A stretch of DNA of 64,000 nt, from NCBI RefSeq assembly GCF_013167455.1, contig NZ_CP038328.1, one strand, 5' to 3'. The position numbers were made by a program. Within the stretch, counting starts at the first letter, position 1. Every line of letters starts with the position of its first letter. Source of the DNA: Escherichia coli O157:H7. Its GTDB lineage: Bacteria > Pseudomonadota > Gammaproteobacteria > Enterobacterales > Enterobacteriaceae. Positions 8,301 through 11,300 of the stretch are shown here, one piece after another.

Positions 8301-11300
8301 CCATCAACCAGGCGAGTGCGGGAGCGACGTTAACTGTCACCTACCAGGGCTGTGCTGATGCCGGTTTCTGTTATCCGCCAGAAACCAAAACCGTTCCGTT
8401 AAGCGAAGTGGTCGCCAACAACGCAGCGTCACAGCCTGTGTCTGTTCCGCAGCAAGAGCAGCCCACCGCGCAATTGCCCTTTTCCGCGCTCTGGGCGTTG
8501 TTGATCGGTATTGGTATCGCCTTTACGCCATGCGTGCTGCCAATGTACCCACTGATTTCTGGCATCGTGCTGGGTGGTAAACAGCGGCTCTCCACTGCCA
8601 GAGCATTGTTGCTGACCTTTATTTATGTGCAGGGGATGGCACTGACTTACACGGCGCTGGGTCTGGTAGTTGCCGCCGCAGGGTTACAGTTCCAGGCGGC
8701 GCTACAGCACCCATACGTGCTCATTGGCCTCACCATCGTCTTTACCTTGCTGGCGATGTCAATGTTTGGCTTGCTTACTCTACAACTCCCCTCCTCGCTG
8801 CAAACGCGCCTCACGCTGATGAGCAATCGCCAACAGGGCGGCTCACCCGGCGGAGTGTTTATTATGGGGACGATTGCCGGACTGATCTGTTCACCATGCA
8901 CCACCGCACCGCTTAGCGCGATTCTGCTGTATATCGCCCAAAGCGGGAACATGTGGCTGGGCGGCGGCACGCTTTATCTCTATGCGTTGGGCATGGGCCT
9001 GCCGCTGATGCTAATTACCGTCTTTGGTAACCGCTTGCTGCCGAAAAGCGGCCCGTGGATGGAACAAGTCAAAACCGCGTTTGGTTTTGTGATCCTCGCA
9101 CTGCCGGTCTTCCTGCTGGAGCGAGTGATTGGTGATGTATGGGGATTACGCTTGTGGTCGGCGCTGGGTGTCGCATTCTTTGGCTGGGCCTTTATCACCA
9201 GCCTACAGGCCAAACGCGGCTGGATGCGCGTGGTGCAAATAATCCTGCTTGCAGCGGCATTGGTTAGCGTGCGCCCACTTCAGGATTGGGCATTTGGTGC
9301 GACGCATACCGCGCAAACTCAGACGCATCTCAACTTTACACAAATCAAAACGGTAGATGAGTTAAATCAGGCGCTCGTTGAAGCCAAAGGCAAACCGGTG
9401 ATGTTAGATCTTTATGCCGACTGGTGCGTCGCCTGTAAAGAGTTTGAGAAATACACCTTCAGCGACCCGCAGGTGCAAAAAGCGTTAGCAGACACGGTAT
9501 TACTTCAGGCCAACGTCACTGCCAACGACGCACAAGATGTGGCGCTGTTAAAGCATCTTAATGTCCTTGGCCTACCGACAATTCTCTTTTTTGACGGACA
9601 AGGCCAGGAGCATCCACAAGCACGCGTCACGGGCTTTATGGATGCTGAAACCTTCAGCGCACATTTGCGCGATCGCCAACCGTGAACGACACTTGCAGTG
9701 GGAAAGACGGAGGAAAATAGCGTGCAACGTGAAGATGTACTGGGAGAAGCCCTGAAATTATTAGAATTACAAGGGATTGCCAACACCACGCTGGAGATGG
9801 TTGCTGAACGTGTGGATTATCCACTGGACGAGCTACGCCGCTTCTGGCCAGACAAAGAGGCAATCCTCTACGATGCGCTGCGTTATCTTAGCCAACAGAT
9901 AGATGTCTGGCGTCGTCAGCTGATGCTGGACGAAACGCAAACCGCCGAACAAAAGCTGCTGGCACGTTATCAGGCGTTATCGGAGTGCGTTAAAAACAAC
10001 CGCTATCCGGGCTGTCTGTTTATCGCTGCCTGTACGTTTTATCCCGATCCTGGCCACCCTATTCATCAACTGGCCGATCAGCAAAAAAGCGCGGCCTACG
10101 ATTTCACCCACGAACTGTTAACCACGCTGGAAGTTGACGATCCGGCGATGGTAGCAAAGCAGATGGAACTGGTGCTGGAAGGCTGTTTAAGCCGAATGCT
10201 GGTGAATCGTAGCCAGGCGGATGTCGACACCGCACATCGGCTGGCGGAAGATATCCTGCGCTTCGCCCGCTGCCGCCAGGGTGGTGCACTGACCTGACAG
10301 AAACACAGAAAAGAAGCGATTTGCCGCAATCTTAAGCAGTTGAATCGCTTTTACTGAAATTAGGTTGACGAGATGTGCAGATTACGGTTTAATGCGCCCC
10401 GTTGCCCGGATAGCTCAGTCGGTAGAGCAGGGGATTGAAAATCCCCGTGTCCTTGGTTCAATTCCGAGTCCGGGCACCAAATTCATATAAACGGACCTCC
10501 ACGGAGGTCCGTTTTTCGTTTCAGGACGCCACGATTTAAGTGTTCTGCCTCCAAATCAATTCTACCGAACTCAACCCGATTCTCCCCACATCACCAGCAA
10601 TTTGCGGGCATATCCCAATTCGGGAAAATTTGTTCCTGAGCTATAGCACTAACTAACGTGAAATGTCGTGCGGCCCCGTGATGCTGTTGAACGTCAAATG
10701 ACGTCATCAGGAGCGTAACGCATCCATAAAGCGCAACATCGGTCTGAACGCCGACTGATGAGATTTTCTGAATGAGAACAAAGAGAAATGTATCAGTCCG
10801 CTTGCTCATGCAAAGACTAACAATCCATTAAAATAGTAAGCGCTCCGGACAATTTTCCATGGATTATTTTCTGAACATTTTTCTTTGGCAAAGATGATGA
10901 ATTTTGATGGTAAGGAATATTACTTCTGGTTCTCAGTAAAATCCTTTCGTAATACCATGTAATCAAGAAGTTTATGGCTGGTAAAAATAACGTCTTGCAT
11001 TCACCAATAATATGTAAATAAACCCATCTATAGATGGTAAAAATAGGTTGTGGCAATTATCATTGCATCATTCCCTTTTCGAATGAGTTTCTATTATGCA
11101 ACAACCTGTAGTTCGCGTTGGCGAATGGCTTGTTACTCCGTCCATAAACCAAATTAGCCGCAATGGGCGTCAACTTACCCTTGAGCCGAGATTAATCGAC
11201 CTTCTGGTTTTCTTTGCTCAACACAGTGGCGAAGTACTTAGCAGGGATGAACTTATCGATAATGTCTGGAAGAGAAGTATTGTCACCAATCACGTTGTGA

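What the first reader, a model, noticed from the sequence alone, without database searches (positions are those of the whole stretch)
10480..11095. 616-bp AT-rich, gene-free spacer downstream of tRNA-Phe
The 3' ends of tRNA-Phe genes are common integration sites for P4-like integrases and pathogenicity islands. Here cadC follows after a 616-bp AT-rich spacer with only short, compositionally odd ORFs (10591..10809 and 10817..11056, minus strand). I could not recognise an integrase fragment or a direct repeat of the tRNA 3' end by eye, but a decayed integration scar is possible.
Basis: partly seen in the sequence, partly recalled or inferred. Interest (0 to 1): 0.25.

Follow-up and report, generated by a model that had tools for sequence, protein, structure and literature searches.

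The report
Dead integrase scar beside tRNA-Phe
The 616-bp gap between the tRNA-Phe gene pheU and cadC is mostly the collapsed left end of an ancient P4-type genomic island, already annotated in E. coli K-12 as pseudogene yjdQ, followed by the short cadC promoter region, so it is real but ordinary.

Summary
The window is E. coli O157:H7 (dcuA-cutA-dsbD-dicD/yjdC-pheU-cadCBA). It is not featureless. Bases 10480-10953 (77%) are collinear with the left end of present-day pheV/pheU islands, in this order:
- an island-type terminator hairpin;
- the integrase leader;
- integrase codons 1-11 (ATG mutated to ATA);
- a deletion of about 1 kb;
- codons ~356-420 with two small frameshifting deletions;
- the stop codons;
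- 114 nt of integrase 3' flank with a ruined terminator.

tblastn against an intact 420-aa integrase gives E = 1e-10, while shuffled spacers never exceed 22 bits. The curated K-12 record calls the core of it pseudogene yjdQ (b4654), and PGAP calls it a frameshifted tyrosine recombinase. The large deletion junction is shared by four Escherichia lineages, so the scar is old. In O26 strains a modern LEE island sits between pheU and the scar. No attR repeat survives in the 64 kb. The two minus-strand ORFs are not conserved. Only the last 66 nt travel with cadC in other genera.

The feature is already known, so interest is low.

The parts
10404..10479 (+). tRNA-Phe(GAA), pheU. Its last ~23 nt (10457-10479) are the att core used by intP4-type islands.
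   Evidence: ARAGORN; Rfam tRNA, 68.3 bits. attR copies of the 3' end (TTCGATTCCGAGTCC-GGCACCA) lie at island ends in L003, L005 and L009.
10480..10524 (+). Island-type flank carrying an intrinsic terminator (hairpin 10489-10514 plus a T run). It now serves as the pheU terminator and replaces the native tRNA-Phe terminator.
   Evidence: Terminator scan. Fold -18.4 kcal/mol, z -4.8. Identical or near-identical sequence follows the att core in all intP4 islands. K-12 pheV and outgroup pheU instead carry GAACCCGCCC..GGCGGGTTTTTGCTTTT. Identity across Escherichia is 0.97.
10525..10642 (+). Remnant of the integrase leader / 5' untranslated region, with a 12-nt deletion and a 22-nt deletion that removes the Shine-Dalgarno region.
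   Evidence: Window 10456-10612 against L005 2715-2870 is 90% identical, E 3e-53. Window 10404-10612 against L006 is 92.8%, E 8e-80. The local alignment shows the 22-nt gap and the MAFFT alignment the 12-nt gap.
10643..10675 (+). Integrase codons 1-11, with the start codon mutated ATG to ATA. The ~1.04-kb internal deletion junction lies at about 10669-10676.
   Evidence: Alignment of ctATAgcactaactaacg with ctATGgcactgactgacg, and tblastn residues 1-11 at 64% identity. The junction is shared by K-12, L004, L010, L011 and L012.
10677..10839 (+). Integrase C-terminal remnant. Codons 359-391 map to 10677-10760, with an internal stop and a 16-nt deletion that removes the catalytic Tyr378. Codons 397-420 map to 10762-10833 after a 14-nt deletion. 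Stop codons TAG TAA are at 10834-10839. This span equals yjdQ (b4654).
   Evidence: tblastn E 1e-10; blastn HSPs; PGAP pseudogene; NC_000913.3 yjdQ 4362191-4362353; positions of catalytic residues.
10840..10953 (+). Integrase 3' flank, including the decayed integrase terminator hairpin.
   Evidence: The HSP window 10762-10953 against L006 4410-4601 is 74.6% identical, E 3e-36. Local-alignment z against shuffled query is 10.8 for window 10840-10910 and 3.1 for 10910-10995. The hairpin folds at -28.5 kcal/mol (z -9.1) in L006 against -4.5 (z 0.4) in the window.
10954..11029 (+). AT-rich segment of unassigned origin. It matches neither the islands nor the cadC upstream regions of other genera, but it is conserved without indels among Escherichia that have cad at pheU. 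It is probably upstream cadC promoter DNA.
   Evidence: No significant similarity to L006 (z 1.1-2.3). cadC-upstream homology in other genera begins only at 11030. The 10954-11095 segment has identity 0.93 and no gaps across Escherichia.
11030..11095 (+). cadC core promoter and 5' untranslated region, which travels with the cad block. The candidate -10 box TATCAT lies at 11058-11063.
   Evidence: Homology runs from 11030 onward at 90.6% to E. fergusonii, where cad lies at another locus. It begins at 11058 for Raoultella and 11089 for Pseudescherichia. TATCAT/TATACT is conserved. The promoter assignment itself is inference.
11096..12634 (+). cadC, the gene bounding the spacer on the right.
   Evidence: ORF; Pfam Trans_reg_C + CadC_C1; 100% identical to E. 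coli CadC.

Best explanation
The spacer is a composite. Bases 10480-10953 are the fossilised left (attL) end of a P4/CP4-type ('intP4') genomic island that once integrated into the 3' end of pheU.

The integrase gene was then inactivated by a ~1-kb internal deletion. Further decay followed: loss of the ribosome-binding site, ATG to ATA, two small frameshifting deletions, loss of all catalytic residues, and loss of its terminator. It encodes nothing now.

Two pieces of the spacer still work. The island-derived hairpin at 10489-10514 terminates pheU transcription. The last ~66-142 bp form the weak cadC promoter and 5' untranslated region. The tRNA 3' end remains a usable attB, so modern islands such as LEE or pap islands insert between pheU and the scar and push the scar to their far side.

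Shown: the homology, the anatomy, the distribution and the relative age. Inferred: terminator function, the position of the cadC promoter, and the order of decay events.
For: (1) Collinear DNA homology to intact integrase loci covers the tRNA end, terminator, leader, first codons, last ~65 codons, stops and 3' flank.
(2) tblastn gives E 1e-10, while 200 shuffles reach at most 22.3 bits.
(3) The intact relative has the P4-type architecture Arm-DNA-bind_3 + Phage_int_M + Phage_integrase. It starts 197 nt after tRNA-Phe in pheV islands, the same geometry as the remnant.
(4) Independent annotation agrees: a PGAP pseudogene and yjdQ/b4654 in NC_000913.3.
(5) The hairpin after pheU is island-type. 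The native tRNA-Phe terminator, seen at K-12 pheV and at pheU of outgroups, is different.
(6) In O26 RM8426 an island ends with attR and is followed by the terminator, leader, scar and cadC.
(7) The spacer is present at >=80% length in 5218 of 5426 complete E. coli genomes. The same big deletion junction occurs in E. whittamii, Escherichia sp. E1V33 and a divergent lineage, L012.
(8) The conservation pattern fits neutral decay between constrained ends. Identity is 0.97 for the terminator and 0.93 for the cadC-proximal 142 nt, both without indels. It is 0.83-0.86 for the scar segments, with many lineage-specific indels.
(9) The literature names yjdC-pheU-cadC as an island hotspot, with the same integrase at pheV and pheU (PMC7686366; PMC11537424).
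Against: No attR or relic of the displaced native terminator was found in the 53 kb downstream, so the extent of the original island is unknown. Bases 10954-11029 could not be assigned to either source. The consensus scan finds no plus-strand sigma-70 promoter in 10250-11250, so the cadC promoter position rests only on cross-genus conservation of a TATCAT box. I found no mapped cadC transcription start in the searchable literature.
Confidence: 0.93

Rival explanations
1. The scar and the cad genes are one event. The intP4-type island delivered cadC-cadB-cadA-dtpD, or the whole ~17 kb up to the DUF2238 gene at 27474, into pheU as cargo in an Escherichia ancestor. The integrase then died, fixing the cargo.
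For: The integrase 3' flank ends only 76 nt before DNA that travels with cadC. cadCBA-dtpD is a portable block found in different neighbourhoods in E. fergusonii, Raoultella and Pseudescherichia. Among 80 loci anchored on YjdC, cadC follows pheU only in Escherichia. In Enterobacter, Kosakonia, Phytobacter and Huaxiibacter, pheU is followed directly by the homolog of window 27474-28103 and/or by proP and crfC. cadC is 42% GC against 52% for the window.
Against: No attR or native-terminator relic lies upstream of 27474 or anywhere else in the window. No genome was found with an intact integrase directly followed by cadC. E. albertii carries a different truncation of the integrase (leader plus ~42 codons, then unrelated DNA), so repeated independent integrations at this hotspot are common. 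Adjacency alone could therefore arise by deletion between an unrelated island and a pre-existing cad block.
Confidence: 0.35
2. There is no scar. The region is just an unusually long AT-rich cadC promoter / H-NS-type regulatory region, and the integrase similarity is chance.
For: The cadC-proximal 295 bp are 32.5% GC. The comparative literature lists the K-12 pheU site as unoccupied (PMC3032704).
Against: DNA HSPs with E down to 8e-80, collinear over 474 bp including non-coding island flanks. tblastn E 1e-10 with negative shuffle controls. Two independent annotation pipelines call it an integrase pseudogene.
Confidence: 0.01
3. One or both minus-strand ORFs (10591-10809, 72 aa; 10817-11056, 79 aa) are real small genes.
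For: They are open in the O157:H7 window. One promoter-like site lies on the minus strand at 10891-10863.
Against: There are no Pfam matches. ORF 1 is frameshifted or stopped in L004, L010 and L012. ORF 2 has an in-frame stop in K-12, L004, L011, L010 and L012. The promoter count is below the shuffle expectation, 1 against 1.5. ORF 1 is antisense to a decaying pseudogene.
Confidence: 0.02
4. The scar has been co-opted as a regulatory element. It might be a small RNA, or a remnant integrase promoter reading into cadC now that the integrase terminator is destroyed.
For: The integrase terminator hairpin is lost, so nothing predicted stops plus-strand transcripts between ~10520 and cadC. Genomic SELEX reported an RNA polymerase holoenzyme site in the cadC-pheU spacer (PMC5493296).
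Against: Rfam finds nothing but the tRNA. The scar segments evolve with many indels and 0.83-0.86 identity, showing no constraint. No plus-strand promoter-like site is found. The strong pheU terminator blocks read-through from upstream.
Confidence: 0.05

Closest known systems
yjdQ (b4654), pseudogene between pheU and cadC in E. coli K-12 MG1655 (NC_000913.3)
   Same: It is the same locus and the same sequence; K-12 is 98.5% identical over the spacer. yjdQ at 4362191-4362353 maps to window 10677-10839. PGAP annotates the equivalent 'tyrosine-type recombinase/integrase, frameshifted, missing N-terminus' in O157:H7, TOP10 and O26.
   Different: The annotation covers only 163 bp. The homologous island remnant actually spans 474 bp: terminator, leader, codons 1-11, C-terminal codons and 114 nt of 3' flank. 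'Missing N-terminus' is therefore not strictly true.
intP4 (CP4/P4-type) integrase of pheV/pheU genomic islands (GI-pheV, PAI-pheU, LEE islands)
   Same: The relation is homologous at 75-93% DNA identity by segment. The position and orientation relative to tRNA-Phe are the same, and so are the leader and terminator after the att core. The literature reports that pheV and pheU islands share one integrase (PMC7686366; PMC11537424).
   Different: The window copy lacks codons ~12-357, all catalytic residues (R238, H341, R344, Y378), its start codon, its ribosome-binding site and its terminator. No cargo and no attR can be tied to it.
Other degenerate tRNA-linked integrase remnants at this site (E. 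albertii pheU, Kosakonia quasisacchari pheU mini-scar)
   Same: These show the same process of island turnover at pheU leaving fragments.
   Different: The breakpoints differ. E. albertii keeps the leader plus ~42 N-terminal codons. K. quasisacchari keeps a duplicated partial tRNA end plus the native terminator. They are therefore independent decay events.

Membership tests
P4/CP4-57-type tyrosine integrase (intP4) | Significant sequence homology to intact family members | tested here: met
   tblastn E 1e-10 to WP_001218854.1 (L005), with shuffles reaching at most 22.3 bits. Collinear blastn HSPs with E from 8e-80 to 6e-7.
P4/CP4-57-type tyrosine integrase (intP4) | Domain architecture: Arm-DNA-binding + central + catalytic domain | tested here: not met
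   The intact relative has PF13356 + PF22022 + PF00589. The window copy retains only residues 1-11 and ~359-420. It is a pseudogene derived from the family, not a functional member.
P4/CP4-57-type tyrosine integrase (intP4) | Catalytic residues (Arg, His-x-x-Arg, Tyr) | tested here: not met
   R238 and H341/R344 fall within the ~1-kb deletion. Y378 falls within the 16-nt deletion.
P4/CP4-57-type tyrosine integrase (intP4) | Gene lies immediately 3' of a tRNA gene, in the same orientation, ~200 nt from the tRNA end | tested here: met
   Intact copies start 197 nt after tRNA-Phe. The remnant start codon lies 163 nt after it, and the difference is accounted for by the 12-nt and 22-nt deletions.
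tRNA-integrated genomic island (attL-int-cargo-attR) | Direct repeat of the tRNA 3' end (attR) at the distal boundary | tested here: not met
   None in the window at up to 3 mismatches in 18 or 30 nt or up to 7 in 23 nt. The single 7-mismatch hit at 46507 matches the chance expectation of 0.8. No relic of the native terminator was found.
tRNA-integrated genomic island (attL-int-cargo-attR) | attL-side flank derived from the element, so the native tRNA flank is displaced | tested here: met
   The hairpin after pheU is the island type. The native type is seen at K-12 pheV and at outgroup pheU.
tRNA-integrated genomic island (attL-int-cargo-attR) | Cargo absent from the same site in related taxa | tested here: inconclusive
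   Outgroups have pheU followed by the DUF2238 gene and proP, and the cad block lies elsewhere in other genera. The link between the integrase and this cargo cannot be shown.
cadC promoter region | Mapped transcription start with -10/-35 elements upstream of cadC | not testable with these tools
   The only support is a TATCAT box at 11058-11063 conserved across genera. The consensus scan finds no plus-strand promoter, and no mapped start was found in the searchable papers.

The most novel reading that the evidence does not exclude
The scar is the surviving left end of the very island that brought the lysine-decarboxylase acid-stress module (cadC-cadB-cadA-dtpD) into the Escherichia chromosome at pheU. 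Possibly the whole ~17 kb up to the DUF2238 gene arrived this way, including lysU, dcuSR, dcuB and fumB. On this reading a 'core' E. coli trait is fossil island cargo fixed by death of its integrase, and pheU now uses an island-derived terminator.
Probability: 0.3. Interest if true: 0.35.

Novelty: already known. Interest (0 to 1): 0.15.

Why it matters
It matters little on its own. The remnant is annotated in the reference genome, and the pheU site is a textbook island hotspot.

It has modest practical value. The 'empty' pheU site used as a reference in island-typing studies (yjdC-pheU-cadC) is not pristine. Its first 474 bp, including the terminator used by pheU, are island-derived and share 90% identity with the left end of incoming islands. 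That can confuse island boundary calls and offers a substrate for homologous recombination.

If the cargo reading were true, it would give a dated example of how a horizontally acquired acid-resistance module became a fixed genus-level trait.

Tried and rejected
- attR search: exact and mismatch-tolerant searches for the tRNA 3' end, and for the native tRNA-Phe terminator with or without the tRNA end, found nothing above chance.
- Right junction: I inspected the fumB to DUF2238-gene intergenic region as a candidate right junction. Only the ~65 nt proximal to the DUF2238 gene align with outgroups, and there is no att relic.
- RNA families: Rfam at permissive E-value found only the tRNA.
- Minus-strand ORFs: no Pfam hits and no conservation.
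- Second terminator-like hairpin at 10737-10760: it is not better than shuffles (z -1.1), and its T tract was brought next to the stem by the 14-nt deletion.
- Origin of 10954-11029: no match to island flanks or to cadC upstream regions of other genera.
- Literature: 'yjdQ' returns no paper. Searches for a mapped cadC promoter or transcription start were unproductive. A genomic-SELEX table lists an RNA polymerase site in the cadC-pheU spacer at low resolution only.
- L003 (14EC047) was first thought to offer an intact integrase, but it only showed an attR-plus-terminator junction inside a tandem island.

Full report
**Context and observation.** The window matches E. coli O157:H7 genomes at 100% over the spacer. 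The gene order is dcuA-cutA-dsbD-dicD(yjdC)-tRNA-Phe-cadC-cadB-cadA. tRNA-Phe(GAA) occupies 10404-10479 and cadC starts at 11096, so the 616-bp spacer is exactly as described. Its GC content is 0.399 against 0.519 for the window, the lowest 5% of 616-bp windows. The first 320 bp are 0.467 GC, and only the cadC-proximal 295 bp are strongly AT-rich at 0.325. The two minus-strand ORFs exist.

**What is really there.** RefSeq/PGAP annotation of the identical or near-identical sequence in O157:H7, K-12 derivatives and O26 carries a plus-strand pseudogene, 'tyrosine-type recombinase/integrase; frameshifted; missing N-terminus', equal to window 10677-10836. The curated K-12 record NC_000913.3 names it yjdQ (b4654), at 4362191-4362353, equal to window 10677-10839.

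I tested this independently. An intact 420-aa integrase (WP_001218854.1, locus L005) has the P4-type architecture Arm-DNA-bind_3 + Phage_int_M + Phage_integrase. It was aligned to the spacer at DNA and protein level.

The collinear DNA blocks are as follows:

| Window | Content | Identity / E-value |
|---|---|---|
| 10404-10612 | tRNA, terminator, leader | 92.8%, E 8e-80 (vs L006) |
| 10669-10718 | integrase C-terminal region | 86% |
| 10722-10760 | integrase C-terminal region | 82% |
| 10762-10953 | integrase C-terminus, stops, 3' flank | 74.6%, E 3e-36 (vs L006) |

A local alignment also recovers the start of the gene. Window ctATAgcactaactaacg aligns with ctATGgcactgactgacg, preceded by a 22-nt deletion that removes the Shine-Dalgarno region.

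tblastn finds residues 1-11, 359-391 and 397-420 in three different plus frames. The joint E-value is 1e-10, and 200 shuffled spacers never exceed 22.3 bits against the observed 36.6 + 32.3.

The remnant lacks codons ~12-357. The catalytic R238 and H341-x-x-R344 are in the large deletion, and Y378 is in a 16-nt deletion. The integrase terminator is a -28.5 kcal/mol hairpin in an intact pheV island (z -9.1) but is destroyed in the window (-4.5, z 0.4). Similarity to island DNA stops at 10953, and the last 142 bp score like shuffles (z 1.1).

**The scar starts right after the tRNA.** The hairpin at 10489-10514 folds at -18.4 kcal/mol (z -4.8). The same sequence follows the att core in every intP4 island examined, both at pheV next to intact integrases (L006-L008) and at internal or right-hand island junctions (L003, L005, L009). 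K-12 pheV has no intP4 island, and Enterobacter and Kosakonia pheU represent outgroups. All of these are followed by a different, mutually related terminator, GAACCCGCCC..GGCGGGTTTTTGCTTTT. So E. coli pheU is in an attL configuration, and its terminator is island-derived.

**Age and behaviour.** The spacer is present at >=80% length in 5218 of 5426 complete E. coli genomes. An intact-length relative of the integrase sits next to a tRNA-Phe in 3323 of them. In O26 RM8426, whose serotype carries LEE at pheU according to the literature, an island ends with attR (TTCGATTCCGAGTCC-GGCACCA). That attR is followed by the terminator, leader, scar and cadC. The scar is therefore chromosomal flank that predates current islands, and attB is still in use.

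Among 80 loci from other species anchored on YjdC, the full pheU-scar-cadC arrangement occurs only in Escherichia: E. whittamii at 85%, Escherichia sp. E1V33 at 91%, and a divergent lineage (L012) at 76%. All of these share the large deletion junction. The smaller deletions and the ATG-to-ATA change are nested and lineage-specific.

Identity across these species is 0.97 for the terminator and 0.93 for the cadC-proximal 142 nt, both without indels. It is 0.83-0.86 for the scar segments, with many indels. This is the signature of neutral decay between two constrained ends. E. albertii has a different truncation, the leader plus ~42 codons. Several other genera carry intact integrases of 54-77% identity right after pheU, which shows continual turnover at this site.

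**The cadC side.** cadC-cadB-cadA-dtpD is a conserved block that lies in different neighbourhoods in E. fergusonii, Raoultella and Pseudescherichia. DNA homology upstream of cadC across these genera starts only at window 11030 (E. fergusonii, 90.6%), 11058 (Raoultella) or 11089 (Pseudescherichia). It includes a conserved TATCAT/TATACT at 11058-11063, which I take to be the -10 box (inference). The consensus scan finds no plus-strand promoter. From general knowledge, that is compatible with cadC being weakly and constitutively expressed. Bases 10954-11029 remain unassigned.

**Rivals.**
- Chance similarity, or a plain promoter region, is excluded.
- The minus-strand ORFs are not genes. They have no Pfam hits, and they carry stops or frameshifts in relatives, including K-12.
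- A structured RNA is not supported.
- Co-option as a regulatory element is unsupported by conservation but has not been tested experimentally.

**Most novel reading.** In Enterobacter, Kosakonia, Phytobacter and Huaxiibacter, pheU is followed directly by the DUF2238 gene homologous to window 27474-28103 and/or by proP and crfC. About 17 kb of Escherichia DNA therefore lies between pheU and that gene: the scar, cadCBA, dtpD, lysU, dcuSR, dcuB and fumB. The integrase remnant sits at its left edge, only 76 nt from DNA that travels with cadC. This is what a fossil island with fixed cargo would look like. However, no attR or native-terminator relic exists anywhere in the window, and no genome with an intact integrase next to cadC was found. 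I put this reading at about 0.3.

**Verdict.** The feature is an already annotated pseudogene (yjdQ) at a well-known island hotspot (PMC7686366, PMC11537424; PMC3032704 lists the K-12 pheU site as unoccupied). The added detail is that the scar spans 474 bp, includes the terminator used by pheU, and predates the split of several Escherichia species. This is tidy but not surprising, so interest is low.

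Noticed in passing
window 10461 (within tRNA-Phe 10404-10479): pheU in this window has a T-loop G-to-A substitution (GGTTCAATTCC instead of GGTTCGATTCC). K-12 pheU, a divergent E. coli pheU, all pheV copies and the attR repeats have G. In a search of 5426 genomes, the listed hits that are 100% identical over 10330-10530 are all O157:H7, while K-12 and others differ by exactly one base. ARAGORN and Rfam still call it a tRNA.
   Followed up: partly
window 10480-27474; loci L035, L043, L047, L058, L060, L080, L082, L084: Synteny with other Enterobacteriaceae breaks exactly at pheU. In several genera pheU is followed directly by the DUF2238 gene (window 27474-28103) and/or by proP (41027-42529) and crfC (43668-45896). 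This implies ~17 kb plus ~13 kb of lineage-specific DNA in Escherichia on either side of the DUF2238 gene.
   Followed up: partly
L091 (E. fergusonii), L093 (Raoultella), L094 (Pseudescherichia vulneris): The cadC-cadB-cadA-dtpD block is conserved as a four-gene unit but sits in a different chromosomal neighbourhood in each genus. E. fergusonii CadC is only 80% identical to E. coli CadC and lies next to pgaA and a MASE4-GGDEF gene, which suggests separate acquisition.
   Followed up: partly
L005 2715-4197; L003 3980-4045: Tandem island junctions. An attR-like partial tRNA end is followed by the island terminator and leader, and in L005 by an intact integrase. This indicates accretion of successive islands at tRNA-Phe sites.
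   Followed up: partly
L015 (E. albertii) 10759-11047: E. albertii pheU carries an independent integrase truncation. The leader plus ~42 decayed N-terminal codons (83.7% to L006) are followed by unrelated AT-rich DNA. Its cadC (P0014/L092) is cut off at a contig end.
   Followed up: partly
L058 (Kosakonia quasisacchari) ~12290-12560: A second copy of the last ~18 nt of tRNA-Phe plus the native terminator lies ~200 nt downstream of pheU. It is a miniature attL/attR-type scar with almost no content between the repeats.
   Followed up: no
L010 10644-12659 (E. whittamii), and many other loci where the tRNA lies ~1.6-2.2 kb from yjdC: A 671-aa DUF1176 protein gene lies between yjdC/dicD and pheU in E. 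whittamii, Escherichia sp. E1V33 and many other genera. It is absent from E. coli, where the gap is only 106 nt.
   Followed up: partly
L014 (deposited as E. coli strain E69, CP089930.1) 10761 onward: Similarity to the window ends 2 nt after pheU. There is no terminator, scar or cad genes within 10 kb, so this genome has different DNA at the site.
   Followed up: no
window 10737-10760: A terminator-like hairpin followed by a T tract. The T tract was brought next to the stem by the 14-nt deletion in the integrase remnant. The fold is not better than shuffles (z -1.1), so it is probably meaningless.
   Followed up: yes
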